Below are positions 5,015 to 60,553 of a stretch of DNA of 64,000 nucleotides, in pieces. The DNA comes from a virus. Position numbers and translations under genes: made by a program. The stretch lies in the IMG/VR virus record IMGVR_UViG_3300022694_000001; one strand, given 5' to 3'. The notes below the pieces were generated by a model. It did not search any database, was not told the DNA's origin, and saw nothing but the letters and a program-made list of their open reading frames with translations. Position 1 is the first letter of the stretch, and the number at the start of each line of letters is the position of its first letter.

Positions 5015-5031
5015 GACAGCGGAGCGCAGTC
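5015..5031 (-). promoter_or_regulatory. Palindromic operator/promoter motif, copy 1 (leftward promoter)
   Basis: GACAGC-ggagc-GCAGTC; minus strand reads TTGACT-17-TACGCT upstream of the 4993 GTG. Confidence 0.75.
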
Positions 5032-5062
5032 AATAGAGAATGGAAAGGCTAGGAATGAAGAA

Positions 5063-5093
5063 AACGCTCAAACGCCGAACGTCCAACGCTCAA
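5063..5093. repeat. AACGYYS heptamer array (intergenic)
   Basis: aacgctc a aacgccg aacgtcc aacgctc aa. Confidence 0.75.
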
Positions 5094-5116
5094 TTTGAGA
5101 AAGATACTATGCTCTT

Positions 5117-5133
5117 GACAGCGGTTAGCTGTC
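5117..5133 (+). promoter_or_regulatory. Palindromic operator/promoter motif, copy 2
   Basis: ttGACAGC-ggtta-GCTGTC. Confidence 0.75.
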
Positions 5134-5152
5134 GTGAGAAACAGCTTTGCTA

Positions 5153-5548
5153 ATGAAAGCGTTTCCGCGGTCGAACAGGATTTTTCGGCACGCGTTTGCG
5201 TTTGCGTTTGATGATGCGCCTAGCGTCTGGCTGGGGGTTGGTTACACCCTGGCTTCGCACAAGATTTCGTTGAACACCAACGATGCGACAAGTGATAAAA
5301 CGCTGCCGCAGTTGACGGACGCCAAGGCTAACGCAACCACGGGCGACATTCGGACAGTGGCGTTTGCGATAGCGGAAGCGTTGTTTCAGGCGTGGCTGGC
5401 ACAGGGAGCCGGTGGGCAGCCACGAAACATGGTTATTCGCCGGAGCGCGAGCAGCGCAGGCACCAACGACACTGTTACCTACACCTACCAGTTGCAGTTC
5501 ACGCTGGACCCGAGCGGGACGTACACTGTAGATGATGAGCCGGCGTAA
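5153..5548 (+). CDS. Hypothetical protein, possibly structural
   Basis: ATG 20 nt after motif copy 2; C-terminal beta strand TYTYQLQFTLD. Confidence 0.65.
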   Translation: MKAFPRSNRIFRHAFAFAFDDAPSVWLGVGYTLASHKISLNTNDATSDKTLPQLTDAKANATTGDIRTVAFAIAEALFQAWLAQGAGGQPRNMVIRRSASSAGTNDTVTYTYQLQFTLDPSGTYTVDDEPA

Positions 5549-5559
5549 TGGCGGAAGAA

Positions 5560-5582
5560 AACGCCGAACGCCGAACGCTCAA
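5560..5582. repeat. AACGYYS heptamer array
   Basis: aacgccg aacgccg aacgctc aa. Confidence 0.7.
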
Positions 5583-5598
5583 TGTAGAATAACAGAAA

Positions 5599-5694
5599 AT
5601 GACAATAAAAGGGATAGCAATAGCGTTTGGGGTGATTTTGCTCGTCATTTTCTTTCTTTGTTTTCTTTTCCTTTTTTTGCCTAGTGGATTGTGA
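5599..5694 (+). CDS. Small single-TM peptide (31 aa)
   Basis: MTIKGIAIAFGVILLVIFFLCFLFLFLPSGL; below the ORF-track cutoff. Confidence 0.4.
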   Translation: MTIKGIAIAFGVILLVIFFLCFLFLFLPSGL

Positions 5695-5737: not shown

Positions 5738-5754
5738 GACAGCGTTTCGCAGTC
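5738..5754 (+). promoter_or_regulatory. Palindromic operator/promoter motif, copy 3
   Basis: ttGACAGC-gtttc-GCAGTC; TTGACA-17-TAAGCG; ATG at 5772. Confidence 0.75.
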
Positions 5755-6290: not shown

Positions 6291-6307
6291 GACAGCGTTT
6301 CGCTGTC
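6291..6307 (+). promoter_or_regulatory. Palindromic operator/promoter motif, copy 4
   Basis: ttGACAGC-gtttc-GCTGTC directly upstream of the scaffold gene. Confidence 0.8.
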
Positions 6308-16646: not shown

Positions 16647-16663
16647 GACAGCGAAACGCTGTC
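16647..16663 (+). promoter_or_regulatory. Palindromic operator/promoter motif, copy 5
   Basis: ttGACAGC-gaaac-GCTGTC. Confidence 0.8.
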
Positions 16664-19545: not shown

Positions 19546-19761
19546 TTGCCCTGCAACACTCATAACGACGACGAGGATTCGGTGTCGCGTGCGCGTTTTC
19601 TCATGTCGCCGTGGAACGTGCGCGAGGCTCGGAGGCGCAGGCGCAATGACAGGCTGTGGATTGCGTTGGCCGTCATTGTGTTCGCGGTTGTGGAACTCAT
19701 TTTGATTTACGCGTTTGCCCTCCAGTGCGGCTGGATCGGGAGCGTAGCGCTGCCAGGGTAG
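19546..19761 (+). CDS. Small TM protein
   Basis: RLWIALAVIVFAVVELILIYAFAL TM segment. Confidence 0.45.
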   Translation: MPCNTHNDDEDSVSRARFLMSPWNVREARRRRRNDRLWIALAVIVFAVVELILIYAFALQCGWIGSVALPG

Positions 19762-20152
19762 CTTCGCGCAGCCGCAACACGTGGCCCATGCCGCGGAGTT
19801 CTGCCACGGGTAGCATGGTTTCAAGGCAACGGCGCAACACGTCGGCGTGCAACAAGTAGCGATCGCGCTGGCTCATGCGCTCATGGATCTCGCGCAATGT
19901 TTTGGCGATTGCTTTGGACGTGCGCACGGTCATCATGGCGTCAAGGGTGTGATCGCCCACTGGCCGGAGGAGGCGCACTTTGCCGGCGTGCGCCAGGAGG
20001 GCAGCGGCTTCCATGCTGTAGCGCAGCACGTCGGCTTCCGGCATTTCGCACGCCTTGCAGATTCTATTGACGGCTTTCCGCAGTCGTTGCGGGACGCGCG
20101 GCGCGAATTTCACACTGAGGTCCGGTTTGTGCTGGCGTGTCATGGCCGACAA
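19697..20152 (-). CDS. Tandem ribbon-helix-helix-like regulator
   Basis: Two units: VKFAPRVPQRLRKAVNRIC...EADVLRY and MMTVRTSKAIAKTLREI...HADVLRRCLE. Confidence 0.6.
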   Translation of the reverse strand: MSAMTRQHKPDLSVKFAPRVPQRLRKAVNRICKACEMPEADVLRYSMEAAALLAHAGKVRLLRPVGDHTLDAMMTVRTSKAIAKTLREIHERMSQRDRYLLHADVLRRCLETMLPVAELRGMGHVLRLREATLAALRSRSSRTGGQTRKSK

Positions 20153-20396: not shown

Positions 20397-20400
20397 AGTC

Positions 20401-21685: not shown

Positions 21686-21894
21686 AAGATCAAAGAGAAA
21701 ACGTCCAACGCTCAACGCTGAACGTCCAACGTCGAATGGAAGAGCGTGGACTCGAACTGCTTTACTGGACGTGCCGCTGCCACGGTTTCCGTTACTGCTA
21801 TCCGGGTGCGTGTATGCACACCGACGAATCCAATTTAATACCGTCACACGAGATTTTTAGCGGCGGAACGACAGCGAAAGGCAGTCGAAAATGA
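21682..21894 (+). CDS. Small Cys-containing protein with N-terminal heptamer array (21700..21736)
   Basis: SD-like aggagg upstream; ENVQRSTLNVQRR encoded by AACGYYS x5. Confidence 0.5.
   Translation: MKDQRENVQRSTLNVQRRMEERGLELLYWTCRCHGFRYCYPGACMHTDESNLIPSHEIFSGGTTAKGSRK
21870..21886 (+). promoter_or_regulatory. Palindromic motif, copy 6
   Basis: GACAGC-gaaag-GCAGTC, 5 nt before ATG 21891. Confidence 0.65.
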
Positions 21895-31635: not shown

Positions 31636-31947
31636 GTGAAGCATTGGGTTTCACTTTGGCGGGTGCCGCCGCCGGCAAACCAGGTCATCAGCGTCCGGCA
31701 TGGATCTTCTGTCTGTTTTGCGGCTTATTCCAGGGTACTGGACCAGTGGTTCTTGATCGCTAATGGTAGCGAGGAGGAGATAGCCGCCCCGGAGATGTGG
31801 TTTTGTGATGATGAATACGCGGCGCAACATCAGATCAACGGCGCCGTGGAACCGCAGCGCGAGCGCGTGTCGCTGCGGGTAGATCGTCGGCCACGGCAAC
31901 TACAGTTATTTGGTGACAGCGTTTCGCTGTCTGGGAGAGCGGCGTGA
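31636..31947 (+). CDS. Hypothetical protein
   Basis: SD-like gaaagggg, GTG start. Confidence 0.55.
   Translation: MKHWVSLWRVPPPANQVISVRHGSSVCFAAYSRVLDQWFLIANGSEEEIAAPEMWFCDDEYAAQHQINGAVEPQRERVSLRVDRRPRQLQLFGDSVSLSGRAA
31915..31931 (+). promoter_or_regulatory. Palindromic motif, copy 7
   Basis: gtGACAGC-gtttc-GCTGTC, 13 nt before GTG 31944. Confidence 0.7.
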
Positions 31948-32386: not shown

Positions 32387-33931
32387 ATGCCAAAATCCCC
32401 GGACGAAATCAGGCAGGATCTTGAGCGCCGAGAACGACAGCGTTCGGCTGTCGCCAAGCCCGCCGATAACGGGGCACAGGCTGCTCACACGCCACGCCAG
32501 AAGGCGCAACGCGCTTCCGCCTGGTCAGGAGAGCGGCCAACTCGTTCACGGGCATCTACGGGCGTTTCGCAAGACATTCACCGGACCCCGCCGCACTCGG
32601 TCGAAGCTGAGCAAGGCGTGATTGGATCGATGTTACTTTCGCCGCGGGACACCATTGCTGAAGTGGTGGCCCAGGTGAATGAGAATTACTTCTACGTGCC
32701 TGCGCACGTCACGATCTACAACGCGTTGGTCAAAATGTGGGATTCGTCTCAAGCCATTGATATGATCACGCTTACAGAGTATCTCCGTAACGTGGGTCAG
32801 CTTGAGGCTGTAGGTGGGCCAGCTTTCTTGGCGCATGTCCAAACGTTCGTTCCGACAGCCGCAAACGTCCTCTATTACGTCGGGATTGTCATCGATAAGT
32901 TCCTTTTGCGGCAGATGATCGCCGGCGCCACAGAGACCGTGCGACGCGCTTACGAAGAGCAGGATGAAGTCAGGCTGTTACTGGACGACGTAGAGCAGCG
33001 GTTTATCTCGATCGGCGACACAGTGACTTCGGTCAGCGTCACGTCCATGAAGGATAATGTCATGCACGCGATCGAGGTCATCGAAAGCGCGCACGAACGT
33101 AAGGGCATCACAGGACTTTCAACCGGCTTCGTCGAGTTTGACCGGATGACCAACGGTTTGCAGCCGTCTGAAATGATCGTGATCGCGGGGCGGCCGAGCA
33201 TGGGGAAAACCGGACTCTGCATGAACATCGTGGAACACGTAGCACTGGTGAACAAAACGGCAGTGGGCGTGTTCAGTCTTGAAATGAGCACCAATCAGTT
33301 GACCCAGCGCCTATTGTGTTCCCGGGCTCGCGTCAATTCGCAGAAGGTCCGCGATGGTTTTCTATCAGAGCGCGATTTTCCGGCTCTAACTGCGGCAGCA
33401 TCTAAATTTGGGGAAGCTCCAATCTACATCGACGACAGCTCGAGCATGAGCATCCTTGAACTGCGTGCCAAGGCTCGCCGGCTAAAGTCGCGTTACGATA
33501 TTGGATTGGTCGTTGTCGATTATCTACAGCTGTTGTCCTCAATGTCGAAGCGCGGCCAGGAGAATCGACAGGTGGAAGTCTCTGAGATTTCTAAGGGGCT
33601 AAAAAGTCTGGCCAAGGAGTTAAAGCTACCTGTATTGGTCGCCGCGCAGCTTAACCGGCAACCAGAGGGCCGCTACCACGGCAAGCCGCGTCTGAGCGAT
33701 CTTCGCGAGTCAGGATCCATCGAGCAGGATAGCGATACCGTTTGTTTGCTCACACGCCCTGAAGTTTACGAGGATGACCAGGAGCTTAGGCATGAAATGG
33801 CCGGCGAAGCCGAGCTTATCATTGCCAAACAACGCAATGGGCCAACTGGCGAAGTGTACCTTACTTTTATCAAGGAATTCACGCGCTTCGAGACGCGAGC
33901 GCGCAACATTGGAATAGAGGAGGAGTTTTGA
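32387..33931 (+). CDS. dnaB: Replicative DNA helicase
   Basis: PPHSVEAEQ, GRPSMGKT, FSLEM, VVDYLQL, AQLNR, DLRESGSIEQD, KQRNGPTG. Confidence 0.95.
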   Translation: MPKSPDEIRQDLERRERQRSAVAKPADNGAQAAHTPRQKAQRASAWSGERPTRSRASTGVSQDIHRTPPHSVEAEQGVIGSMLLSPRDTIAEVVAQVNENYFYVPAHVTIYNALVKMWDSSQAIDMITLTEYLRNVGQLEAVGGPAFLAHVQTFVPTAANVLYYVGIVIDKFLLRQMIAGATETVRRAYEEQDEVRLLLDDVEQRFISIGDTVTSVSVTSMKDNVMHAIEVIESAHERKGITGLSTGFVEFDRMTNGLQPSEMIVIAGRPSMGKTGLCMNIVEHVALVNKTAVGVFSLEMSTNQLTQRLLCSRARVNSQKVRDGFLSERDFPALTAAASKFGEAPIYIDDSSSMSILELRAKARRLKSRYDIGLVVVDYLQLLSSMSKRGQENRQVEVSEISKGLKSLAKELKLPVLVAAQLNRQPEGRYHGKPRLSDLRESGSIEQDSDTVCLLTRPEVYEDDQELRHEMAGEAELIIAKQRNGPTGEVYLTFIKEFTRFETRARNIGIEEEF

Positions 33932-35024: not shown

Positions 35025-35203
35025 AACGTCGCTGGCGACCTATCCCGTTACAGGGTTTCATCCACACTTGCTGCACCTGCGGAGCAAAGCATGATGTCGA
35101 TGTGCGCCTGCACCGCGGCGTATTGGACTTCCGTTGGACACCAATAATTACCCCCAAGAGGAGGAAGACTAAGCTCAAAAACGCACGCAATGATGCCAAG
35201 TGA
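35021..35203 (+). CDS. Small Cys-containing protein
   Basis: HTCCTCGAKH; ATGA-coupled. Confidence 0.5.
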   Translation: MKRRWRPIPLQGFIHTCCTCGAKHDVDVRLHRGVLDFRWTPIITPKRRKTKLKNARNDAK

Positions 35204-35218
35204 CAGAGAAACGCAGTC
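35202..35218. promoter_or_regulatory. Palindromic motif, one-mismatch copy upstream of the replication gene
   Basis: GACAGa-gaaac-GCAGTC. Confidence 0.5.
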
Positions 35219-37152: not shown

Positions 37153-37385
37153 GTCCAACCGCGCACGAAATGGAACTTGAACCAGAGCCACCGGACCCGA
37201 GCGAGCTATGCCCGGTCTGCGGCAAGCTGGACTGCGTATGTCCGGCTGACAGCGAAAAGCAGTCGCTTGAGAAGACGTTTTACCGTGACGGTTCGCGCGA
37301 GATCGGGAAAGAGGATGCAATCACTCGTTCCGACATTCAAACCACTGGCGAGAAGATCCCCTTCTTCCGAAGGAGGAAGCAATGA
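37149..37385 (+). CDS. Small Cys-containing protein
   Basis: CPVCGKLDCVC; SD ggagg. Confidence 0.5.
   Translation: MSPTAHEMELEPEPPDPSELCPVCGKLDCVCPADSEKQSLEKTFYRDGSREIGKEDAITRSDIQTTGEKIPFFRRRKQ
37248..37264 (+). promoter_or_regulatory. Palindromic motif, copy 8 (intragenic)
   Basis: GACAGC-gaaaa-GCAGTC. Confidence 0.6.
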
Positions 37386-38214: not shown

Positions 38215-38384
38215 GTCTTCACGAAACAAACCAGCTTCGTAAATGGAGTAAAGAAAACCGTGGTAGCGGATCGCGGCGACGCGCTCCGATGTGTGGTCTT
38301 TGCGGTAAACGCCACCGATATGAGGTCCCATGTAAACAAACGCGGACCAACCCAGAACTTCTTGACAGCGAAAAGCAGTCGTGA
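38211..38384 (+). CDS. Small Zn-finger-like protein
   Basis: CGLCGKRH...C. Confidence 0.45.
   Translation: MSLHETNQLRKWSKENRGSGSRRRAPMCGLCGKRHRYEVPCKQTRTNPELLDSEKQS
38364..38380 (+). promoter_or_regulatory. Palindromic motif, copy 9
   Basis: ttGACAGC-gaaaa-GCAGTC upstream of the terminase operon. Confidence 0.75.
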
Positions 38385-40932: not shown

Positions 40933-41277
40933 ATGAGAAATGCGCGTAAGATCAACACCGGGTTCAAAGCGGCAGCAATCATGCCGCCACTGCCGGCAAC
41001 CGAGGTCGAGGAGTGGCTTGCTAATCAGCCACAGATTCAACAGGCAATCCGCGTCATGTACGAGAGAAGCGGAGCAATCATCTGGGATGATGAAAGAAAG
41101 ACCTGGCATGGTAAAGATTGGTTTCCGGGTCTAAGGGTAGTCGTGAAAGCTCGTTCTAAGGGGTGGACGTGGGCTTCCACAAACGGTGTTGACAGCCAAA
41201 GGCCGACGACGGAAACGCGCGGAACCATTATAGGGGAGAAGATTCGACAGGCACACCAGCGACTGAAACCTGCTTGA
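40933..41277 (+). CDS. Hypothetical protein
   Basis: ORF open from 40912; likely ATG 40933. Confidence 0.5.
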   Translation: MRNARKINTGFKAAAIMPPLPATEVEEWLANQPQIQQAIRVMYERSGAIIWDDERKTWHGKDWFPGLRVVVKARSKGWTWASTNGVDSQRPTTETRGTIIGEKIRQAHQRLKPA

Positions 41278-41292
41278 CAGCCAAAGGCAGTC
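41276..41292 (+). promoter_or_regulatory. Palindromic motif, copy 10
   Basis: ttGACAGC-caaag-GCAGTC; TTGACA-17-TAACGA. Confidence 0.75.
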
Positions 41293-41493: not shown

Positions 41494-41802
41494 TCAGTAT
41501 CTGGTGGTAACTTTGCCCGTCCAGCGGTCGAGGATAACGATGCGACTGGGGCCGCGGGATTTGTCTATCATGGCGTGGTAACGGTGGGTGACACTATAGA
41601 TCAGGGCAAAAGCGATGATGGCCACGGCGATAATGAGTGCGCGCGAGTTCTCTTTTAGGAAGGCAACCACTGTGGCGGGGTGTAGCACCGGTTCTGGACT
41701 GGCGCAAACGAATCGTGATTGACAGCGAACCGCTGTCGTGATAGTCGCGTTTACATGCCCGAACCGAACGAAGACGAGCTGAGGAAGCATCCAGCTTACC
41801 AA
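41494..41802 (-). CDS. Small membrane protein on the opposite strand (start uncertain)
   Basis: TM ALIIAVAIIAFALIY plus IVILDRWTGKV. Confidence 0.5.
   Translation of the reverse strand: MVSWMLPQLVFVRFGHVNATITTAVRCQSRFVCASPEPVLHPATVVAFLKENSRALIIAVAIIAFALIYSVTHRYHAMIDKSRGPSRIVILDRWTGKVTTRY
41721..41737 (+). promoter_or_regulatory. Palindromic motif, copy 11
   Basis: ttGACAGC-gaacc-GCTGTC; TTGACA-17-TAGTCG; ATG 41755. Confidence 0.8.
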
Positions 41803-54900: not shown

Positions 54901-57900
54901 GCGGTTGGGAATGAAAGACACGCTGGATGAATCGCTCTGGAAAATTATTGAGCGCAAACTGCGGATCCAGAAACAGGCGTTAAGCGGTAAGATCGTGGGG
55001 CGCGAACTCGAAGAGATGAGCGATGTCCTGAGTCTCGCGGAGCAAGCCTCGATTTTAAGCGGCCCATACGGAGCCGAGAGTTTCGAGCTGGATAGCCGGA
55101 TTCGGGAATTAGAAGGGAGCCGGGCCGGGCACGACCGTCAAGTTGCAAACCGAGATTCGGAGATCAGGTCGTCGAAAGAATGGCTGCGCCAGCAGGAAGC
55201 CGAAGAGGCGCGGTCTGAGCCGGCGATGCAGTTAATGGCAAAACTCGGTGAGCGCGTCTCGAAAGACGGTGCTCAGATCACGGTAGATGGCGATTCGTTT
55301 GAGACTAAGACGGCGATGGTGGAGCGTGTGAACGCGTTATTGGACGCGGAGAAAAACAAACCGACCAACGAAAAAAGCAAAGCCATTTTCTCAGTGGCGG
55401 TCAACGGCGTTCCGGTGCGGTTGGATGTTACTCCTACAGAATATGACGAATGGGATGTTGCGGGTGTAGAAAGCAAGAGGGTAACGAAACCGTCCGCGCA
55501 GTTCGATCTGATGGCGACGGATTCCAATAGCCCGAAATTCGGGCGCGTAACCAGCGCGGCGACGCTGTTGGCGCGCCTCGAGGAATTAAGCGGGACGGTG
55601 GACGGAATCAGGGAAGGCCGAAAGAATAACACGGCGCGATTACGGCAACTGGCCGAGATGCAGCAATTGGGTAAATGGCCGTTTAAAGAGGAATACCAGA
55701 GAGCACTTGCGCGACAGAAAGAGCTTTTGAAGCTGATGCGCGGGGAAGAACTCAAAAAAACAGGAGAAGGAGAAGAAACGCCGAACGCTCAACGCCCAAC
55801 GCCCAACGCTCAACCGGCAGAATTGCGAGCACAGGCGACGGCGGATGCTGCCAAGACGCCGGCGGAACGGTTTAAGGATGCGTGGCCGTTGGCTGAATCG
55901 ATTGCACGCTCGTATTCGAATATCCCCGGCGTGACGCTGAAGGACGTGGAGCAACATGCCCGGATTGCTCTGGTGCGCGCGGCGCGTGAGTTTGATCCTG
56001 CTCGCGGGGCCGCAATGGACACGTTTGCGCGCAAAGTGGTCGGGAATGAGTTGCGCAGTCTTTACGGCAGGCAGATGCGAACGGCGGGGCGGGAATCGAC
56101 GGTGCTGGATGTTCCCGTCTCCGCCGAAGGCTCTGCCGCGGTTTCACAAAAAGAAAACATCGTCGGGCCGAGCGATGTTCGGGCGGACGTGGCGCGGACT
56201 GAGGCGACACAAATGCTTTCGACCGCGATTGACGAGTTGCCGGACAAAATGCGAGACGTGATGAATGGAATCTTGTCCGGGAAAGAGACGCTGGGCGAGA
56301 TCGGGGAACGGCTTGGCGGATTACCGAAACAAGCCGTAGGCCGGCTGGCGAGTGCGGCTATGCGCCGGTTGAAAGGGAAACTTGGTGAGAAAGGCGTTTC
56401 TGGTGTGACGGATCTGTTGAGTCAGGAAACGACCACGGATAACACGGATACGGAGAAAAAGACGTTATCGGATTTCTTGGCGAAGCATGATGCGTCGAAG
56501 GGCACCGTTCCCGCTAAAAAGATAGCTGAGCCGACTAGGAGGAATGTTAAGTTAGCTGAGAAGCTCGGAAATCAATCAACGAGAGACTCGTCTGTTGTTC
56601 CTAATTTTCGGCCTGTGGAGCAGGAAATCGCGATTGGAAGGGCTTATGGCTACAGCGATAACGACATCGCAGCATACTTGCAGCGCAATTACGTGGATCG
56701 AATACCCGAACGTGTTGCGCAAACGTCTGTAGGCGTTCGACCACCGCAGGAGCTAATTGACAAGTATCCAGAGTTAAAACACGCCATTAAAGTTTCCGAG
56801 AAATATGGGCATTTAGTGAAACTCAGCGAGCAACTGGAACTACTGAGTCAGGTCGTCGAGGATGAAGTGAAGCTGTCTGAATCGGCTGATCCGGTGGCGT
56901 CGTTCATGGAGCTTATGCGGGATGATCCGGTTGAGAAGTTGCGCGGTATAAAAGGCATTGGGCGGCCTGATCTGGCGCTGGGCGCGGAGCCTGCCATGCG
57001 GCCGGTGCACGAGTTTCATACTGCCACGGCTACGCCGCAAAAACTGGATGATTGGGACAAACAAGGCGAAGCGATTTTGCGCAGCCGCGGCGACAAATTG
57101 CCAGCGGATGTTACTAAACGTTGGCTGGATGGCTCAGTGCTCGAGCCCGCGGAAGTGCGCGCGACACAGCAATATCTCATCGAAAAACAGGGGCAACCGA
57201 AGACGCCAGAGGAACAACGCGGGTATGACGCGTTGGCGTACGCTTATACCAAGATCGGGGAAGCGACCGCACGGGCGTTGTCTGCGCGCCGTGATCCGTT
57301 CAAAACGCCGGAGGAGAGGAACCGTGAATTTATCGGGAAAGCTCTTGTGCATTTGTCGGCTACTGAAGATCGCGAACTGGACGCGATTGCCGATCACAAG
57401 GAGAAAGTGGCGCGCTTGGAGCAGATCGTTCAGGGGCGACGCACTCAGATCAACGCGGCGCTGGAGCATGTCGCCGGAAAGGGCGTGACGATTGACGATA
57501 TTTTGTCCGGCGGCACGGAATTGCGGTTAAAAGGCGCCAAAATGATCGAGAATCAGATGGCGGGTTACGGCGAATCGGAAAAGAAAGTGATCAAGCTGGC
57601 GCAGACCGGGGCGCGCAGCGCTGCGGAGATTGCGAAAGCGACAGGGCTCAGCGTCAAACAGGTCAACGACATCAACGACCAGTTCGTATCCGATCTGGAA
57701 ACGAAATTGATGGCTAAGACTCGGGCCGGGGCGACGCTTGAGAATTTGGATGCGCAGCAGATTGCACTTTTGGCGCAGGAGACGGAACGGCGGCCAGGGG
57801 CCTCCGCTACAGTATCCGAAGACGTTGCTCGCGCTGAGGCGCGAAAAATGATCAAGGCGATGGGGTTTGTGGCGAGCAAGGATTTGGGCACGATGAAAGT

Positions 57901-60097
57901 GGTTAGGCGGAAGCGATCGAAATTGTTTATTCCTCCTTCGCCAAGACCTGCGGCCGACACGGCCGCCCCTACACCTGGTGAGTTGCCTACGGGACAAGAG
58001 ACGCAGGCTCCGATGATGTTTGGCGGTGAGCGCAGTCCGGTGGCGCCGCGCGAAGGTGAGTTGCCGCGTCCGGCAGGACAGCAAGCGCCTTACACCGGAC
58101 GCGTGCTGGGGCAGATCGGGTTGCCGCTTTATCAGGAAATGATGATTCGTAAAGGAGCGGACATGAGTGAGCCGACTGACGTGGCGCGGCTTGGGAACGT
58201 GATTCACGCGGCAACGAGCGGGAACGCGTTCGACATGGTTTATGAAGCGTGGATTAACAACATTCTTTCGGGGCCGGCTACGCACATGGCGAACATTACC
58301 GGCAACGCGGTCTCTACGGCGTGGGATTTTAGTTTACAACGCGGTTTGGAGTCGTTGGTGAACCTGGCTTATCGCGACGCGGATTCGGCGCAGCTCGGGG
58401 AGTTTAAGCATATCGTGAACGGCATTGTGCCGGGGTTGCGTCGCGGGTTGTCGATCGCGGTCAAGGCGTGGGGCGCAGAAGCCGATTTCTTCCGGAACGA
58501 CGTGCTCAATGAGCAGGTGGAAATGTTCCAGGACTTCGAGAAAGGATCAGGCGGCGCTCTTGGTCCTGCTATTCCCGGCCGGACCGGACGCGTGATCAGG
58601 ATGCCGGGACGCGCGCTGATGTTCATGGACGCGGCGTTCAAGGGGTTAATCGGGCAAATGGAAGCAGGCGCGGTCGCGTATCGGATCGCGAAGCGCGAAG
58701 GGTTGACCGGCGACGCGATGGCCACGCGTATGAACGAACTGGTCGCCACACCGAACAGCGAAGCGTGGCAGCGCGCAGTGGATAAAGCTGTAAACCTCAC
58801 GTTCCAAGATCAGATGCGAACCAAAGAAGAGGGCGGCAACCCGTTTGAGAACGCCGTTGCGCGGTTTAACCAGATGCGGACCGGCAGCCATTTGCTGGGG
58901 TTCTTTTTCCCGTTTATCCGGACGCCATACAACATTTTCAAGATGGGCCTGCGCAAAACGCCATTGGGCAGCGCGAACATGGCCTGGCGCTTTTCGAAAG
59001 CGGGTTTTTACCGGTTCAAGGATGGCAAGCCGATGTTCGAAAGCTACGATAAAGGCGAGCAGGTGAGGCATTTGGCGGAGCAATTGATCGCATGGGCGAC
59101 GTTCGCTGCGCTCTGGGCGGCGACGACCGGCGATGATGACGATGACAAAAAAGCGTTGCTCTTTACCGGGTCCACGCCGGTAACGGAAGTAAGGCGCAGT
59201 GAACGCGAGTTGAGGACGCGGTTGCACGGCGGGCAGTACCAGATTCGGGTAGGCGGCCGCAACGGTGTTTACATCAATTACGGGCGTTATGAGCCGTTCG
59301 CGACGGTGATCGGGACTGTGGTGGACGCGATTACGAACCTCAAAAAGATCAAGCGCGGCCAGACGCTCGGTGAAAGTCTGGACGCGATGTACGGTTATTT
59401 TCTGGCACAGGCGAAATCGAAAACGTTTTTACAGGGGTTTGCCGAGATTGCGGACTCGCTCGAGAGCGGCGGTGGCGTTAGGGGTGGCATCACTGAGGCG
59501 GGCAAAAAGATGTTGTTAAGCGCGCTAGTGCCGAATCTCGTCAGGCAACCGTTACGCAACCTCGATGAATGGGTGCGCGACACGAAAGGCGCTGCACCCA
59601 TTTACCAGATGCTTCCCGCGGGTTCGTTAGCGGAAAGGAAAGCTGATCTGTGGGGGCGCGACGTGCAAAAGAGCGGAAACATCTTCAGCAGGTTATTCCT
59701 GGCGACCGGGACAAAGGTTGAGCCGGACGCGCAAAAGGTAGATTTGCTGTTGCAGAATTGGGTTCATCAAAACCCGGGTGGGGCGCGCGAATTGAGCGTG
59801 CCGTCGAGCGCGATCAACAGGACGTACAAGGACGCGATCGGTAAAGAAGCGCAAATGACACCCGAGCAGTTTCACCGGTTTACGGTGGACTCCGGGAAAC
59901 TGGCGCTAACTCGGTTACGGGGGAAATTCACGCAACGTCAGATCGATCATCCGAAGGCGGAAGATGTGAAGATGATTCGGGGCGCGCTGGAAGATGCGCG
60001 GCGTGAAGTGAAAGAGCGGATGTTTCCGGCGGGACCACGCGGCTTCGGGCATCCACGGCAGGCGATTAACTTACGCGAAGTGATGTGGGCCGCATGA
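42905..60097 (+). CDS. 5730-aa polyvalent virion protein: ejection-like N-terminus, degenerate zincin, ddrB-type ParB, HTH, RelA/SpoT-like, DarB-like N6-MTase + SNF2 helicase, sigma-70-like, HTH, internal-virion C-terminus
   Basis: EQEAIHAV; YDLSLQPRDR...LIGNGR; KSRERAAAK/DLVRG/GYRD/EIQ; VLEPGAGIGHF, SNVPF; GVGGGKT, DEVHKFK, STEKLGTGVNMQ, EQRDGRVYRQGN; FDPARG and region-4 HTH; AWINNILSGPATH. Confidence 0.9.
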   Translation: MADENDEQQPEPPVINREIGQNPLVPSAPADAEEAAPLSSFIPPDQPAPRVIVLPRPRRQGPLYPRDRINPSWHPRDRAPKYGRAVDQFDEAAMYREQHPVERDPETGALRPMRADQYRPGKNVISYDQQGRPKPFDIEDMYREEQGQRTKLNREAAQTLKEAHVQLERDPDTGVVSPVRDDSGNIQYRPGKGAVSYDQQGRAIQTQYDTSGPKQVELDKDSEIGPIEGRPPNELYKQNKYSPFEYVGTIDEGLKHSDKNIQQAAQTAKLKLEHRLHAAVANDLGQTVSEQSLVVQGKISDFKSKGKLLGQLSQQLDNFDAEHPGITETEGGFLGMGARPSQTATTLQAQKADLQKQIEDLQGQGYSTDPKAVTEFTKTDRESLAATRAVHGEWSSGTPKEPGDFDRLIDRRKAILAEQGVDVGEDPILQSLEKRRAELGVGAPTPKDHAAEDELRKDATFGPLLQERDQLHSAHEAASNELQGIQDEYDKVIGPVRERLRVGQAQIAPIQAEVEAYSHKLDQVLGMPTPAAGDEQALAAREAEWSTRISQLTDPRQKARVQTVLNALEPAKQQLRMAQAQLQPVQDTHDALVEENQRMIADRHAQFENELGPQREDLQARMGAAHQQRTVTEAVRKSDVLANVLGPLMVNPNDPGFTPSLVQSIQENLDRRKQEAIKSWDFEPNDFERELFGAPFRMVGEGLKGFAHLSEGLLKLFPQEKNVSDHEQHAVLTRWVADQLLKVPGVLSTPQSEKSLAGKAGGFIGGVAGAVGAGLIDPAILVPQFFGQGVNGQMEAAKQAGADDATALKAGVLGGTINALLAIPFEGFGKALTETFGSAKQSAIQKALKESYERGGAEAVANDLTILRNSMIKTAGRSAFQKTAVDALQPIIEEITKTPLQRAGQVGIEVLKDSALFAGVQAAQNAVTKTYNPDTGLFENVPTAAFEGGVLGAFFGGLRQVGRAQKAGAAREEIATGLAKQARAGEVQPMGVERALPETGVTEGPTETHEQASRNAGVSPVEGVDEAGQGPGPIEQAHGEINNLVVPDVSPAVNTATQHALRGLIKIANGESMEALTTAEKAAVNAKTTDGLPRVVMVKRADGKQQPVITDATLERIRQIAPVTAQVMPQSEGEQRQRILNPVEEITPESGSVEKGEIQPNKKTPEISQPSFEVAIERPSGEVETRTVQAASAEAAKGQVAGSISPGQGMVRDVSEVPQAMSGFVPLDEGQKMDTATALSDEMVGQVREQAGRELQPEEEQAVRGIAERVTPAIEKFRGAFSSIQATLEPRGSMGAFTTIPEGKLVLSLPDIVRHAQEWGEPEGPDLVVEQEAIHAVADQLHQQGKIDPEGIARDMPAELREHVAGVYNPDVPMEERNDLEDGHEFLRLLVQHQLRVDEGKVVDADGKVITENLSPGFIARIRQALVRLFEVFRDMAKRLGEMGAKPEYVEQVQKARDLIVTRLREVDAGSRGAYETTNGGKTAQVKGKGGKAPAERSVEGELRVEPKPTAGQGQVAGAGVGGAVGQPHGVMSAATKTLTGQAGSGAGAELTSKEIAQAAIAIGAPRDKITKPWWDKVGNKHVLSQGGRSVNVAYVAQEASKGRTSHDALGNASSGYDLSLQPRDRSLAQYRKQSQNIAQNLDFAQAAFFPETTTPATTGDIGAPVMTPTGDTLIGNGREIGIKAAYAANSPQARAYKRDFVHNAARFGIDPAAVMKMRQPVLKRVILDDLPKDELIRLSQESNEGVAMGVNATEIANRDATRLTPEILSEFDPNYALDAAKNRGFLRSYLQNVVSGAGANEANINWPDLARRVRAAVFTYAYGADEAGRAALERLQGEDSSRKITDGLLTVAPIVARMKADIASGDLFPLDISPEIARAVQDISEALRDRPKGQSASVALDGLVAQGELIPAGDAPALQQSVRDFVIANRGNRAAIEEALSNYVESVYEIGNPKQPNLFGEQAGEESDRTQLWNLATKPEAIAPKTEQRELAAQALRSRMSEDRGQLTPLDHVIHRKLRAGKSVETVAKEHGMKVEHVERTYDRVNRSQEIRTLLSQQTFRSETDAFAAAEKAKPSFDQTLEDVAKATGARAMTTPIKSRERAAAKVAADYRGDWSKIKDLVRGTIVVRDLDQAKAVVGALAQRFGVEPKRDFNQPLQSGYRDALFNPIINGYVAEIQVHIEPIIHAKSTSHTFYKRHQEIQRAAQVENRALNSQELRTIERLNMAQQRIYAAAFGNISGEISSTASEGLQGKAPTDLISSGVIGRGESPSKAQAVPSLSTTIPKPAGASMKDLASGKAAIASSSVIPPSLTPTGGVRHQEVLLAQKLKDTGTLDLFGDYVGALPAAAKASKPALKREVEKDVPSLAESGAALSNLFELAQPGKTYEVSNPVQFPKVLSATRYSDSTVAKVAHNYVTHQTEYGYRVELEDGRQWIGSAKNRDAAITKAQYEFRKTLTEAPAAGIPQANEDAVRKTARANRKAKVGTETATGVDDLFSLLAEQHGSERDTGLAGGVVQDAIGAPGRTDVAGAGDLPGHETDAGRPGGSVTAGDTDGGRGLAEPTDTGGNAAPSETGGKRTLPKLVSRPADPNARNYVIPRDTKEIAPRGAMAKLRANQDAIKLLKQIETEQRLATPEEKSQLVKYSGWGALSQAFDDAKADRIAAGEISELNTELQRYRGYQERNRESSYYSGEIGRLEKDIRSLESWQSKWGDIHSELKSMLTPDEYKRAMRSTINAHYTSPEMIKSMWDIAAHLGFKGGNVLEPGAGIGHFFGLMPEELLSRSSLHAVELDDISGRLTKMLYPEADVQITGFQNADIADGSVDLSISNVPFANVPVTDKAMELSGGPTDNLHDYFLANMIKKLRPGGLNIAITSAFTMDKGASENRKWMADRADLVAAFRLPNNAFKANAGTDVVTDILVFRKKDGQIFPHAKDWTMLDNATTQKGDPIRVNQYFAQHPQDILGFLADDGEMFAHGAGEKEMTVHADPNRPPAVALEQAIDNLPKDIAGDGNAAEVRSNDPTISKMGNIVEKDGKYFFHGQAEPDEALNDPKNAKRVRKFIETRDVLNEQYRLELDPEATDEDVEANRRMLNARYDSFTADFSNFHTPKNKGLFIDDPDWFRLAGAETPIQVSGGVKEMLSILDGKKSRQFTKADVFKKRVLTPIIEPTKADSLEDAFGMSLGWRGRVDLGYISDLTGQSREQVEQGLVASGIVVRDPENGQLQSREQYLAGNVRKKLDIAKAAGPDYERNAQMLEAVQPEDVPIDEIRFKIGATWVPVDAYQQFLSTIGIELPIEYHTALAGGRDFYTVGLRDYRATGVAHKDFRTDQVSVPELMDSMLNMKRIEVLHTDKDRKGDTDEGATMAARDAGKRLSDAFVAYAKGNAELGPRLAQIYNREANGFAQRTYDGQFLTLPWKNKDFDLFPDKKNVIWRAIQDRYALIAWGVGGGKTVIAAGIALELRRLKLALKPMVVVHNSTLEQYADEIAVIAPSARVLIGRKDELSGAKRKEFLMRIAAGDWDAVVIAHSTFGLIEDDPVFQTKHMESLVDEAMQSLTDRGYNSVSDAKKSREPSVKQLVKMIEQLETKIQALSERKTDTGLLNFQQLGVDALIVDEVHKFKKMPFSTKLDVKGIDSGMSQRGYAMLLRARSIQERNGGKNVFSMTGTPVTNTLGEIWNQVRLVAPHLLKEYGVETFDQFVSKFAEVETISEAGPSGERKMVERLSKIVNLPEWSTFFRQAADVKLGDDMVVKNRPGIKGGGGQLIALERTPGTAAWVNYIRNVLEGFKELKYDDFKDNKSLFAVPVQAYIASRAAAIDIRLIEPRAKDESGSKANRAVRGIIKLYRETTPYNGTQVIFSDSFNQVKTSLFDAVVPRSNLNLELDPSKPPGTTFNLYEDIKAKLIALGVPAEEIAIVADKEFDNAKRKKSLFEDVNKGKVRIVMGSTEKLGTGVNMQERMLAAWNLDVPWTAAGLEQRDGRVYRQGNVHAEMGVPVELTRLGMKDTLDESLWKIIERKLRIQKQALSGKIVGRELEEMSDVLSLAEQASILSGPYGAESFELDSRIRELEGSRAGHDRQVANRDSEIRSSKEWLRQQEAEEARSEPAMQLMAKLGERVSKDGAQITVDGDSFETKTAMVERVNALLDAEKNKPTNEKSKAIFSVAVNGVPVRLDVTPTEYDEWDVAGVESKRVTKPSAQFDLMATDSNSPKFGRVTSAATLLARLEELSGTVDGIREGRKNNTARLRQLAEMQQLGKWPFKEEYQRALARQKELLKLMRGEELKKTGEGEETPNAQRPTPNAQPAELRAQATADAAKTPAERFKDAWPLAESIARSYSNIPGVTLKDVEQHARIALVRAAREFDPARGAAMDTFARKVVGNELRSLYGRQMRTAGRESTVLDVPVSAEGSAAVSQKENIVGPSDVRADVARTEATQMLSTAIDELPDKMRDVMNGILSGKETLGEIGERLGGLPKQAVGRLASAAMRRLKGKLGEKGVSGVTDLLSQETTTDNTDTEKKTLSDFLAKHDASKGTVPAKKIAEPTRRNVKLAEKLGNQSTRDSSVVPNFRPVEQEIAIGRAYGYSDNDIAAYLQRNYVDRIPERVAQTSVGVRPPQELIDKYPELKHAIKVSEKYGHLVKLSEQLELLSQVVEDEVKLSESADPVASFMELMRDDPVEKLRGIKGIGRPDLALGAEPAMRPVHEFHTATATPQKLDDWDKQGEAILRSRGDKLPADVTKRWLDGSVLEPAEVRATQQYLIEKQGQPKTPEEQRGYDALAYAYTKIGEATARALSARRDPFKTPEERNREFIGKALVHLSATEDRELDAIADHKEKVARLEQIVQGRRTQINAALEHVAGKGVTIDDILSGGTELRLKGAKMIENQMAGYGESEKKVIKLAQTGARSAAEIAKATGLSVKQVNDINDQFVSDLETKLMAKTRAGATLENLDAQQIALLAQETERRPGASATVSEDVARAEARKMIKAMGFVASKDLGTMKVVRRKRSKLFIPPSPRPAADTAAPTPGELPTGQETQAPMMFGGERSPVAPREGELPRPAGQQAPYTGRVLGQIGLPLYQEMMIRKGADMSEPTDVARLGNVIHAATSGNAFDMVYEAWINNILSGPATHMANITGNAVSTAWDFSLQRGLESLVNLAYRDADSAQLGEFKHIVNGIVPGLRRGLSIAVKAWGAEADFFRNDVLNEQVEMFQDFEKGSGGALGPAIPGRTGRVIRMPGRALMFMDAAFKGLIGQMEAGAVAYRIAKREGLTGDAMATRMNELVATPNSEAWQRAVDKAVNLTFQDQMRTKEEGGNPFENAVARFNQMRTGSHLLGFFFPFIRTPYNIFKMGLRKTPLGSANMAWRFSKAGFYRFKDGKPMFESYDKGEQVRHLAEQLIAWATFAALWAATTGDDDDDKKALLFTGSTPVTEVRRSERELRTRLHGGQYQIRVGGRNGVYINYGRYEPFATVIGTVVDAITNLKKIKRGQTLGESLDAMYGYFLAQAKSKTFLQGFAEIADSLESGGGVRGGITEAGKKMLLSALVPNLVRQPLRNLDEWVRDTKGAAPIYQMLPAGSLAERKADLWGRDVQKSGNIFSRLFLATGTKVEPDAQKVDLLLQNWVHQNPGGARELSVPSSAINRTYKDAIGKEAQMTPEQFHRFTVDSGKLALTRLRGKFTQRQIDHPKAEDVKMIRGALEDARREVKERMFPAGPRGFGHPRQAINLREVMWAA
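47328..47558 (+). CDS. Nested +1-frame ORF inside the giant gene (76 aa)
   Basis: MRQPMAVRRLRSKVKVVKLPQNDLWKG...KLRVLVLVEQLDNHMESCRLRRKLLLARLD; third positions GC-rich in this frame, A/T-rich in the main frame. Confidence 0.5.
   Translation: MRQPMAVRRLRSKVKVVKLPQNDLWKGNYVSSLSRQQARDKLRVLVLVEQLDNHMESCRLRRKLLLARLDQVPERN
49597..49827 (-). CDS. Nested antisense gene behind the RelA/SpoT-like domain (76 aa), candidate immunity protein
   Basis: MTDEEAIAAFPDAKSFMEAPAGFGIVVDKDGTAWAFDGDSPRPITPEEIK...; purine-rich aagagaaggtgga before ATG; sense frame here is S/A/G/P-rich. Confidence 0.6.
   Translation of the reverse strand: MTDEEAIAAFPDAKSFMEAPAGFGIVVDKDGTAWAFDGDSPRPITPEEIKSVGAFPCKPSDAVELISPEMLPKAAA
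50310..50657 (+). CDS. Nested +1-frame ORF inside the giant gene (115 aa, or 90 aa from ATG 50385)
   Basis: ...IRDWLGGSYKTLLEHLDELTWRVLAIYLDTKQTPDDLAEALRQEIPMEDEDSQNPLTPEETQRLVKLAES; codons ctg gac gaa ctg acg tgg cgg gtg ctg gcg atc tac. Confidence 0.6.
   Translation: MKTQFEKPPELTEKRRLALRQQPEWMTCFRSWLNSTDPSEIRDWLGGSYKTLLEHLDELTWRVLAIYLDTKQTPDDLAEALRQEIPMEDEDSQNPLTPEETQRLVKLAESAHFPS
55777..55813. repeat. AACGYYS heptamer array inside the giant ORF
   Basis: aacgccg aacgctc aacgccc aacgccc aacgctc aa (TPNAQRPTPNAQ). Confidence 0.75.
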
Positions 60098-60258
60098 AAA
60101 AGTTAGCAGTGGTTTATCTATGGTGTCTTCCATTCGTATGCTTTGCCGCCGCAGCCTTCATATTCATTAGATCGGAAACGATTCTGGAAAAGGTAGCAGT
60201 ATTCGTCATTCTAGTTGGGGGTCTCAATGCGTTGCTTATGGCACGAACGGTAAGATAA
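60094..60258 (+). CDS. Small two-TM protein (54 aa)
   Basis: MKKLAVVYLWCLPFVCFAAAAFIFIRSETILEKVAVFVILVGGLNALLMARTVR; ATGA-coupled to the giant ORF. Confidence 0.5.
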   Translation: MKKLAVVYLWCLPFVCFAAAAFIFIRSETILEKVAVFVILVGGLNALLMARTVR

Positions 60259-60264
60259 AAATGT

Positions 60265-60281
60265 GACAGCGGAAAGCAGTC
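60265..60281 (+). promoter_or_regulatory. Palindromic motif, copy 12
   Basis: gtGACAGC-ggaaa-GCAGTC; GTGACA-17-TATAAA; ATG 60297. Confidence 0.75.
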
Positions 60282-60296
60282 CGGCTATAAAGCGAC

Positions 60297-60524
60297 ATGG
60301 GCGCTGATCAACAGACGTGGGACTATGGCGTGAAGTTCACCGGCAAGAAAAGCAAGCCGTTGACGCCGCTGGAGCGGGCGCACGACCACGACCTGAAGCT
60401 CGACAGCCGGGACAAGCGTTGGCGGTGCGCGTGCGGCTACGCGCTGGGCGACGGGCGCGAGAAGTTTCTGGCGCGATGCCCGTTGTTGGGAGTCAATAAT
60501 CCGGAACCGCAGCCAAGCCGTTAG
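60297..60524 (+). CDS. Small Zn-finger-like protein
   Basis: H..D...WRCACG...CP. Confidence 0.55.
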   Translation: MGADQQTWDYGVKFTGKKSKPLTPLERAHDHDLKLDSRDKRWRCACGYALGDGREKFLARCPLLGVNNPEPQPSR

Positions 60525-60536
60525 ATTTTTGTTTAC

Positions 60537-60553
60537 GACAGCGTTTCGCAGTC
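60537..60553 (+). promoter_or_regulatory. Palindromic motif, copy 13
   Basis: GACAGC-gtttc-GCAGTC inside TTTACG-17-TATAAC, upstream of a tRNA-like sequence. Confidence 0.75.

What the first reader, a model, noticed from the sequence alone, without database searches (positions are those of the whole stretch)
5015..60553. Genome-wide 17-bp palindrome GACAGC-N5-GCWGTC fused to sigma70 -35 boxes (phage regulon)
Seen: 13 copies (5015, 5117, 5738, 6291, 16647, 21870, 31915, 37248, 38364, 41276, 41721, 60265, 60537), a one-mismatch copy (35202) and partial copies (41191, 41330). Most are preceded by TT/GT giving TTGACA/GTGACA, so the palindrome covers the -35 and spacer. Copy 1 works leftward (TTGACT-17-TACGCT). 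The copies lie before structural, packaging and tRNA-like genes. Inference: a dimeric regulator controls all these promoters; the RHH proteins at 19697-20629 are candidates.
Basis: partly seen in the sequence, partly recalled or inferred. Interest (0 to 1): 0.75.

Follow-up and report, generated by a model that had tools for sequence, protein, structure and literature searches.

The report
Phage promoter-operator palindrome for leaderless genes
An uncultured phage starts most of its gene blocks, and a tRNA gene, from one repeated 17-letter mirror-image DNA word that overlaps an ordinary promoter placed so that messages begin almost at the start codon. The word is most likely also the docking site of one phage regulator, which is a familiar kind of circuit with a new sequence.

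Summary
GACAGC-N5-GCWGTC occurs 15 times in the window, against 0.04 expected. A 65%-identical relative, IMG/VR contig G001, has 12 more copies.

The full consensus is tTGACAGCG-nnn-cGCwGTCgTG. All eight asymmetric copies face the direction of the genes. With TTGACA as the -35 box, a TG and a weak TAnnnn -10 box follow at the correct spacing. An ORF-opening ATG then lies 15-23 nt after the motif (P about 2e-9 in the window, 7e-9 in G001). The messages are therefore leaderless or nearly so.

Two copies drive tRNA-Met genes, which argues for a role in transcription rather than translation. More distant relatives keep the TTGAC-to-ATG geometry at orthologous operons but lack the palindrome. The palindrome is therefore a lineage-specific overlay, most likely an operator for a dimeric phage regulator.

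The best candidate regulator, though unproven, is a 148-aa RHH-like protein (19697-20143, minus strand). It is conserved only where the palindrome occurs. The sigma domain inside the 5730-aa virion protein is an unlikely reader. This scan has found similar promoter-operator palindromes in several other uncultured phages, so this is a new member of a known kind.

The parts
2631..2647 (.). Perfect palindrome copy inside the minus-strand glycosyltransferase gene (2285-3466). No TT prefix and no start codon behind it, so it is an operator-only copy.
5015..5031 (.). Copy in the only divergent intergenic region. Rightward it reads TTGACA-17-GAGAAT. Leftward it reads TTGACT-17-TACGCT, then 11 nt to the GTG at 4993. 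It is possibly bidirectional.
5117..5133 (+). Promoter-type copy (TTGACA). The ATG at 5153, which opens a 131-aa ORF, is 19 nt after the motif.
5738..5754 (+). Promoter-type copy. The ATG at 5772 (106 aa) is 17 nt after the motif.
6291..6307 (+). Promoter-type copy heading the structural block: a 439-aa ORF from the ATG at 6328, then the major head gene at 7776-9386. A terminator-like hairpin at 6249-6270 lies just upstream. The orthologous site in G001 is at 41059.
16647..16663 (+). Promoter-type copy. The ATG at 16693 (207 aa) is 29 nt after the motif and has an SD-like AAAGG; a GTG lies at 17 nt.
20069..20085 (+). One-mismatch copy (TTGACGGC..GCAGTC) inside the 5' part of the 148-aa RHH-like gene. 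An equivalent copy lies at the orthologous place in G001 (reverse-complement coordinate 57634).
21870..21886 (+). Copy at the 3' end of ORF 21589-21894, 4 nt before the ATG at 21891. It has no TT prefix and is too close to act as that gene's promoter.
31915..31931 (+). Perfect palindrome copy (GTGACA) 12 nt before the GTG at 31944 (144 aa). Its promoter role is uncertain.
32436..32452 (.). Perfect palindrome copy inside the N-terminal part of the DnaB ORF (32240-33931). No start codon lies behind it.
35202..35218 (+). One-mismatch copy (GACAGA) just upstream of a TTGACA unit at 35227 that lies 41 nt before the ATG at 35268.
37248..37264 (+). Copy inside ORF 37116-37385. Its 17-mer is identical to that at 38364. 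It is not placed as a promoter.
38364..38380 (+). Promoter-type copy heading the packaging block: the ATG at 38401 (73 aa), then the terminase at 38579-40444. At the orthologous G001 site (6196), only the motif and the start codon are conserved.
41276..41292 (+). Promoter-type copy. The ATG at 41313 (58 aa) is 20 nt after the motif.
41721..41737 (+). Promoter-type copy. The ATG at 41755 (382 aa) is 17 nt after the motif. The 5730-aa polyvalent protein gene (42905-60097) follows directly.
60265..60281 (+). Promoter-type copy (GTGACA-17-TATAAA). The ATG at 60297 (75 aa) is 15 nt after the motif.
60537..60553 (+). Copy 23 nt upstream of the tRNA-Met gene (60577-60648). The -10-like TAACAT lies at the expected place.
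19697..20143 (-). 148-aa RHH-like protein, the best candidate for the palindrome-binding regulator. It is 49% identical to a G001 protein and absent from G002, G003 and G005.
55886..56374 (+). Sigma-70 family domain (regions 2 and 4) inside the 5730-aa protein. It was considered as the motif reader and judged unlikely.

Best explanation
The motif is a combined promoter and operator. Its left arm, with the preceding TT, forms a consensus -35 box (TTGACA). This is read by the host's primary sigma factor. A TG and a weak TAnnnn -10 box follow 14 and 17 nt later. Transcription then starts at, or within a few nt of, the ATG or the tRNA 5' end, so the messages are leaderless or nearly so. These steps are inferred from geometry and no transcript ends were mapped. 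The two arms, GAC-GC(G) and (C)GC-GTC, are centred 11 bp apart and span about -33 to -17. They are most likely bound by a dimeric phage DNA-binding protein that competes with sigma region 4. Such a protein would repress all motif-bearing gene blocks together, and it would also bind the extra copies inside genes. The most plausible binder is the 148-aa RHH-like protein encoded at 19697-20143 on the minus strand. Its own gene contains a near-consensus copy, which would allow autoregulation. The identity of the binder is the weakest step.
For: - **Enrichment:** 15 sites against 0.04 expected, with 12 more in relative G001.
- **Direction:** all 8 asymmetric (GCAGTC) sites lie on the + strand, the direction of the genes.
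- **Promoter features:** TT or GT precedes 10 of 15 sites, and TG lies at +2/+3 after the motif, which is the extended -10 position.
- **Spacing to starts:** an ORF-opening ATG lies 15-23 nt after the motif at 7 of 15 window sites and 6 of 12 G001 sites. The background is 1.4-1.7% of positions, giving P = 2e-9 and 7e-9.
- **No Shine-Dalgarno:** no SD sequence lies between the motif and the ATG at the eight sites read by eye, while several internal genes carry GGAG-type SDs.
- **tRNA genes:** copies sit 23 nt and 16 nt upstream of tRNA-Met genes in the window and in L038. This supports a role in transcription rather than translation.
- **Orthologous conservation:** in the intergenic region before the terminase block, only the motif and the start codon are conserved.
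- **Lineage-specific overlay:** G002 and G003 (terminase 40% identical) have TTGAC[AG] 35-37 nt before the ATG of the orthologous portal-like gene but no palindrome.
- **Not only a promoter:** copies at 2631, 21870, 32436 and 37248 lack promoter placement, so the palindrome itself is the selected unit.
- **Candidate regulator:** the 148-aa protein is present in the window and G001 and absent from G002, G003 and G005. Its N-terminus is highly conserved. It gives a weak RHH match to VapB26, and its predicted secondary structure is compatible with an RHH fold. A near-consensus site lies inside the gene in both phages.
Against: - No binding or transcript data exist.
- The -10 hexamers lack the usual T at the last position. 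The generic sigma70 scan flags only site 5015, so the host sigma's preference is assumed.
- The 148-aa protein has no significant Pfam hit and a poor structure model, with pLDDT 46.
- The near-consensus site inside its gene may be kept by the conserved peptide RLRxAV rather than by binding.
- Only two full genomes carry the palindrome, so the presence/absence pattern is thin.
- In L037 an apparently related promoter keeps TTGACAGCGAAACGC but has lost the right arm. The promoter can therefore exist without a full dyad.
- One repressor on all gene classes implies lysogeny or global silencing, and no integrase was found in the window.
Confidence: 0.6

Rival explanations
1. The motif is a phage-specific promoter read by the sigma-70 family domain embedded in the 5730-aa virion protein. 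That domain would be delivered with the DNA or made early, and it would direct host core RNA polymerase to all phage operons.
For: A genuine sigma domain is present: Pfam r2 and r4 and TIGR02937 at 47.8 bits against a cut-off of 42.9. It is conserved in G001 at 44% identity. The gene lies in the operon headed by motif copy 41721. The -10 hexamers are non-canonical.
Against: - TTGACA plus TG is the signature of a primary sigma factor. No region 3 was detected between the domain's regions 2 and 4, and region 3 is the part that reads TG.
- In the alignment to RpoS, the positions of the -35-reading residues in region 4.2 and of the aromatic melting residues in region 2.3 are not conserved (read against textbook sigma70 residues).
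- G002 has the sigma domain (34% identity, in a 6075-aa ORF) but no palindrome. G003 has no detectable sigma domain yet keeps the TTGAC-to-ATG geometry.
- A monomeric sigma does not explain the right arm, because the two arms are too close (11 bp) to serve as -35 and -10.
Confidence: 0.1
2. This is a plain family of strong host-type promoters with no dedicated regulator. The conserved spacer would reflect common descent or copying of one promoter cassette, or a DNA-shape optimum for RNA polymerase.
For: The left arm and centre are better conserved than the right arm: position 7 is G in 14 of 15 sites, while position 11 is C in only 8 of 15. L037 keeps TTGACAGCGAAACGC without the right arm.
Against: The flanks and the central 3 nt vary freely, while both arms stay fixed across two genomes that are only about 65% identical. 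Copies also exist inside genes without TT, without a -10 box and without a downstream start. A promoter-only model does not predict this, with 0.04 copies expected by chance.
Confidence: 0.12
3. The palindrome acts as a hairpin or cruciform. It could be an N4-type single-stranded DNA hairpin promoter for a virion RNA polymerase, or an RNA stem-loop for processing, stability or translation control, just upstream of start codons.
For: The 7-3-7 format (GACAGCG-nnn-CGCTGTC) can form a stem of about -9 kcal/mol. The window encodes a giant virion protein, as phage N4 does.
Against: - Eight of 15 copies carry an A-A mismatch in the middle of the stem, which weakens it to about -4 kcal/mol. The mismatch is never compensated.
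- Position 11 often fails to pair with position 7.
- If TTGACA is the -35 box, the motif is not transcribed from its own promoter.
- No RNA polymerase domain was detected in the giant protein.
- No U-run follows the motif.
Confidence: 0.05
4. The copies serve mainly as short homology patches for recombination that shuffles gene modules, as proposed for T4 promoter-stem-loop cassettes and for the Cluster O repeats.
For: The copies sit at module boundaries. The window and G001 share few genes between conserved motif sites. Identical 17-mers lie on both sides of the resolvase gene, at 37248 and 38364. Cluster O phages show deletions between such repeats (PMC4351075).
Against: Homology between the window and G001 continues past site 37248, so that site is not a breakpoint. 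Seventeen bp is very short for homologous recombination. This role would be a by-product and does not explain the fixed distance to start codons.
Confidence: 0.05

Closest known systems
Cluster O mycobacteriophage 17-bp repeats, TGTTCGG-NNN-CCGAACA (PMC4351075)
   Same: The format is the same: two 7-bp inverted arms around an A/T-rich 3-bp centre, mostly TTT or AAA. There are tens of copies across one phage genome, both between and inside genes, and the copies are conserved within the cluster. Those phages also have predicted leaderless promoters.
   Different: The sequence is different. The Cluster O repeats show no clear orientation and are mostly not at promoters, and the authors doubted a transcriptional role. 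Here the left arm is fused to TTGACA, the asymmetric copies follow gene direction, and the start codon lies at a fixed distance.
Mycobacteriophage L5 / Cluster A immunity repressor with operators and 'stoperators' (PMC9283540)
   Same: More than twenty copies of one repressor site are spread over the phage genome, in promoters and in short intergenic gaps. Their orientation correlates with the direction of transcription.
   Different: L5 sites are asymmetric 13-mers bound by a monomer. Here the site is a dyad, which implies a dimer. Most copies here are placed as promoters rather than as elongation blocks.
Lambdoid / 434-type dyad operators overlapping early promoters (textbook knowledge)
   Same: An operator of about 17 bp with two-fold symmetry overlaps the -35 box and spacer, so a bound dimer excludes RNA polymerase.
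   Different: Lambdoid operators occur only at two or three early promoters. Here the same operator sits on structural, packaging, replication, virion-protein and tRNA units.
phiC31 conserved inverted repeats bound by the c repressor, and the RK2 KorA/KorB global regulons (from my own knowledge; not found in the paper library)
   Same: One palindromic operator is repeated at many operon promoters of a mobile element, giving global control by one protein.
   Different: The sequences and proteins are unrelated. The comparison is recalled from memory and was not tested.
Promoters of phage-encoded sigma factors (T4 gp55, SPO1 gp28, phiEco32 gp36; from my own knowledge)
   Same: A phage-borne sigma-70 family domain and a repeated promoter word occur in the same genome.
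   Different: Those promoters differ from the host consensus. Here the -35 box is the host consensus, and relatives with and without the sigma domain share the same promoter geometry.

Membership tests
Sigma70/SigA-type promoter giving leaderless mRNA | -35 hexamer close to TTGACA | tested here: met
   TTGACA at 8 sites and GTGACA at 2 sites, of 15. The same holds in G001.
Sigma70/SigA-type promoter giving leaderless mRNA | -10 hexamer TAnnnT placed 16-18 bp after the -35 box, optionally with TG one base upstream | tested here: inconclusive
   TA is present at the right place, and TG lies at +2/+3 after the motif in most promoter-type copies. The final T is not conserved. The generic scan reports only site 5015.
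Sigma70/SigA-type promoter giving leaderless mRNA | Start codon at the predicted transcript start, with no Shine-Dalgarno sequence | tested here: met
   The ATG lies 15-23 nt after the motif, P = 2e-9 and 7e-9. No SD sequence occurs in that stretch.
Sigma70/SigA-type promoter giving leaderless mRNA | Mapped transcription start site | not testable with these tools
   No transcript data are available, and the host is unknown.
Phage repressor-operator regulon (dyad operator bound by a dimer) | Repeated site with two-fold symmetry, conserved among relatives | tested here: met
Phage repressor-operator regulon (dyad operator bound by a dimer) | Site overlaps core promoter elements | tested here: met
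   By geometry, the motif spans about -33 to -17.
Phage repressor-operator regulon (dyad operator bound by a dimer) | A cognate DNA-binding protein encoded by the phage and shown to bind the site | not testable with these tools
   There is only a candidate, the 148-aa RHH-like protein.
N4-type hairpin promoters | Stable 5-7 bp hairpin with a 3-nt loop, kept by compensatory change | tested here: not met
   There is an A-A mismatch in 8 of 15 copies, with no compensation.
N4-type hairpin promoters | Virion-packaged single-subunit RNA polymerase | tested here: not met
   Pfam was scanned over the whole giant ORF (residues 1-5000, 5001-5730). NCBIfam was scanned over residues 1-3100, the sigma region and 5001-5730. 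These scans found ParB, helicase and sigma domains but no polymerase. A very divergent polymerase could be missed.
Promoter class of a phage-encoded sigma factor | Presence of the promoter word tracks presence of the sigma factor | tested here: not met
   G002 has the sigma domain but no palindrome. G003 has no detected sigma domain yet keeps the same TTGAC-to-ATG geometry.

The most novel reading that the evidence does not exclude
The palindrome is the docking site for a factor delivered in the virion, either a DNA-binding module or the sigma domain cut out of the 5730-aa polyvalent protein. The phage would then control all of its leaderless promoters from the moment of DNA entry, before any phage gene is expressed.
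Probability: 0.08. Interest if true: 0.8.

Novelty: new member of a known kind. Interest (0 to 1): 0.4.

Why it matters
The motif gives a ready-made transcription map of an uncultured phage whose proteins are mostly unknown: its operon heads, its direction of transcription and its likely leaderless start codons. It also defines a small, testable regulon of one 17-bp site and a short list of candidate binders. That regulon could serve as a compact repressible promoter system. It extends the promoter-operator palindrome with leaderless starts beyond actinophages. The host here is unknown, and one terminase relative lies in a Verrucomicrobiota MAG. The contrast with relatives that keep the promoter but lack the dyad shows how an operator layer can be added to an existing promoter set.

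Tried and rejected
- **Whole-genome and host scan:** no genome is held for this window.
- **blastn against INPHARED phages:** part of the giant gene gave no match.
- **Strict pattern in IMG/VR:** apart from G001, only single hits occurred on unrelated contigs, as expected by chance.
- **Other palindromes in distant relatives:** G002, G003, G005 and L022-L028 have none over-represented.
- **Terminase search of metagenome contigs:** only two short contigs were found.
- **Homologues of the 148-aa protein:** four were found, all on short contigs. IMG/VR holds only G001.
- **AlphaFold model of the 148-aa protein:** confidence was too low (pLDDT 46) for a fold search. Pfam gave nothing significant.
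- **Resolvase cassette idea:** the resolvase gene lies between the identical 17-mers at 37248 and 38364. The idea that it was inserted by recombination between them was dropped, because homology with G001 runs through 37248.
- **Right arm as a -10 or -35 box of a second promoter:** rejected on spacing.
- **phiC31 paper:** a search for the conserved-inverted-repeat paper in the library found nothing usable.
Full report
**Observation.** An exact search for GACAGC-N5-GCWGTC finds 15 sites in the 64-kb window, against 0.04 expected from dinucleotide shuffles. Two more exact copies, at 2631 and 32436, were missed. With one mismatch allowed, 20069, 24917, 35202 and 62714 are added. A weight matrix built from the exact sites finds 22 sites in the window at a threshold that gives 0-2 in shuffled sequence.

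The aligned sites give the consensus tTGACAGCG-nnn-cGCwGTCgTG. All eight asymmetric copies (GCAGTC) are on the + strand, which is the direction of nearly all genes from 5 kb onward.

**What the window is.** It is a phage. The identified genes are:
- a major head protein (7776-9386), a tail spike (11993-14554), a terminase (38579-40444) and an exonuclease;
- a DnaB helicase, a DNA methylase and a glycosyltransferase;
- an SU10-type adaptor, HNH endonucleases and a small resolvase;
- a 5730-aa ORF (42905-60097) with ddrB-ParB, SNF2-helicase and sigma-70 r2/r4 domains. This matches the 'polyvalent protein' type described by Iyer et al. and cited in PMC7824862.

No whole genome is held for the window, and INPHARED has no nucleotide match.

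**Promoter geometry.**
- TT precedes 8 copies and GT precedes 2, giving TTGACA or GTGACA.
- Counting 17 nt from that hexamer reaches a TAnnnn hexamer 5-10 nt after the motif. The conserved TG at +2/+3 after the motif falls exactly at the extended -10 position.
- An ATG that opens an ORF of at least 50 aa lies 15-23 nt after the motif at 7 of 15 window sites and 6 of 12 sites in the relative. The background is 1.4-1.7% of positions, giving binomial P of 2e-9 and 7e-9.
- This is where a transcript from such a promoter would begin. The stretch contains no Shine-Dalgarno sequence at the eight sites read by eye, while several internal genes have GGAG-type sites. The messages are therefore predicted to be leaderless or to have leaders of a few nucleotides.
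- Site 60537 lies 23 nt upstream of a tRNA-Met gene. In the related contig L038, a variant copy (GCCGTC) lies 16 nt upstream of another tRNA-Met, so the predicted start coincides with the tRNA 5' end. The motif therefore acts in transcription, not translation.
- Copy 5015 sits in the only divergent intergenic region and is the only copy flanked by TT on the left and AA on the right. It reads TTGACA-17-GAGAAT rightward. Leftward it reads TTGACT-17-TACGCT, 11 nt before the GTG at 4993.

**Relatives.**
- The IMG/VR contig IMGVR_UViG_3300046462_000310 (G001, 69.7 kb) is syntenic but circularly permuted relative to the window. Its terminase is 64% identical and its nucleotide identity is about 65% in conserved genes. 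It has 12 exact copies in the same orientation.
- In the orthologous intergenic region before the terminase block, only the motif and the start codon are conserved.
- Two short metagenome contigs are equally close by terminase (63-65% identical) and carry related sites. L038 has TTGACAGCGAAAAGCCGTC. L037 has TTGACAGCGAAACGC with a degenerate right arm, at the distance before an ATG that fits a leaderless start.
- More distant phages G002, G003 and G005 (terminase 29-40% identical) have no copy and no other over-represented palindrome.
- Even so, G002 and G003 have TTGAC[AG] 35-37 nt before the ATG of the orthologous portal-like gene and of other long ORFs.
- The -35-to-ATG geometry is therefore shared by the whole group, and the dyad is an overlay found only in the window's lineage.

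**What reads the dyad.** Sigma needs only the left arm. The right arm is nevertheless fixed across two genomes that differ at a third of their positions. Copies also exist inside genes with no TT, no -10 box and no start behind them: 2631, 21870, 32436 and 37248. This points to a protein that recognises both arms, which are centred 11 bp apart, so a dimer. A site spanning about -33 to -17 would exclude sigma region 4, so repression is the simplest effect.

The variable base in the right arm (A, T, or C in relatives) is mirrored by an invariant A in the left arm. This fits two overlapping constraints: the protein is indifferent at that position, while sigma requires the A of TTGACA.

**Candidate regulator.**
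- Three RHH-type genes lie at 19697-20629: a 148-aa gene and a 68-aa gene on the minus strand, and a 66-aa gene on the plus strand. The 82-bp spacer between the two small genes holds a different palindrome, TCGCAAG-N6-CTTGCGA.
- Only the 148-aa protein is conserved in G001 (49% identity), and it is absent from G002, G003 and G005.
- Its few homologues share a nearly invariant N-terminus.
- A profile of these homologues gives one weak hit, E = 0.45, to the RHH antitoxin VapB26.
- A near-consensus copy (TTGACGGC..GCAGTC) lies inside the gene in both phages. The conserved peptide RLRxAV could also explain that copy.
- The structure model is poor, with pLDDT 46. The assignment is a lead, not a result.

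**The sigma domain.** It is genuine: TIGR02937 scores 47.8 bits against a cut-off of 42.9.
- No region 3 was detected, and region 3 is what reads TG.
- In the alignment with RpoS, the positions that read TTGACA and that melt the -10 box in primary sigma factors are not conserved.
- G002 has the domain without the palindrome, and G003 lacks a detectable domain yet keeps the promoter geometry.

**Hairpin models.** Eight of 15 copies have an uncompensated A-A mismatch that weakens the stem from about -9 to about -4 kcal/mol. No RNA polymerase domain was found in the scans of the giant protein.

**Comparison with known systems.**
- The format (7-3-7 with a TTT or AAA centre, tens of copies, both between and inside genes) matches the Cluster O mycobacteriophage repeats. 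Their function is unknown, and they are not tied to promoters (PMC4351075).
- Genome-wide repressor sites whose orientation follows transcription are known from L5-type stoperators, which are asymmetric and bound by a monomer (PMC9283540).
- Dyad operators over the -35 box and spacer are classical in lambdoid phages.
- This scan has already reported similar palindromic promoter-operator units with leaderless starts in several other uncultured phages.

This is therefore a new member of a known kind. Three points are less common. The same unit heads structural, packaging, replication, virion-protein and tRNA genes. The host is unknown and may not be an actinobacterium: a relative's terminase lies in a Chthoniobacterales MAG, and one of the sigma domain's many weak sub-threshold matches is to a Planctomycetaceae-specific subfamily model. 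Finally, relatives show the promoter without the operator.

**Limits.**
- No transcript or binding data exist.
- Only two full genomes carry the dyad.

Noticed in passing
window 5069-5090, 6707-6735, 11999-12034, 21705-21733, 55775-55810; G001 (reverse complement) 16256-16291, 16667-16688: A second repeat family occurs on the + strand only: 35-45 nt made of (C/G)AACG(C/T)(C/T) units, lying inside ORFs. In a fixed register every copy reads T(S/P)NAQ-like peptides, and at most copies that register is the host ORF's own frame. The antisense RNA folds at -12 to -20 kcal/mol through G-U pairs, against -3.5 to -7 for the sense strand. At least three of the antisense hairpins are followed by a U-run. 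They look like strand-specific terminators of leftward (antisense) transcription.
   Followed up: partly
window 47304-47558 and 50273-50657: Inside the giant gene there are two units, TTGACG-17-TATGAG-7-ATG and TTGACG-17-TATTCC-8-ATG. They open +1-frame ORFs of 72 and 115 aa. They have the same leaderless promoter geometry as the motif sites but no palindrome.
   Followed up: partly
window 60577-60648; L038 637-714; L021 3187-3263: The window, L038 and G001 each carry a tRNA-Met (CAT) gene. By eye, the window and L038 copies have a mismatch at acceptor pair 1-72 (C-A in L038), which is a feature of bacterial initiator tRNAs. This would be interesting for a phage that seems to rely on leaderless messages. 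The anticodon-stem rule was not checked properly.
   Followed up: partly
window 19697-20629: This region has a switch-like layout: a 68-aa and a 148-aa RHH-type gene run leftward and a 66-aa RHH gene runs rightward. The 82-bp A/T-rich spacer between them holds TCGCAAG-N6-CTTGCGA. G001 has the same layout but with unrelated small proteins.
   Followed up: partly
window 42905-60097: The 5730-aa polyvalent protein has ddrB-ParB (residues 1588-1726), SNF2-type helicase (3438-3986) and sigma-70 r2/r4 (4328-4490) domains. G001 has a 4407-aa version and G002 a 6075-aa version, both sharing the sigma and C-terminal parts.
   Followed up: partly
window 37597-38214: A small serine recombinase (resolvase N-terminal domain, 205 aa) lies between two identical 17-mer motif copies, at 37248 and 38364. 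It is absent from G001. Weak relatives occur in G003 and G005.
   Followed up: partly
L022 (JACSRX010000032.1): A terminase 51% identical to the window's lies on a 26.9-kb contig of a Chthoniobacterales (Verrucomicrobiota) MAG. This is the only hint of a host found. It was not checked whether that contig is a prophage or a binning artefact.
   Followed up: no
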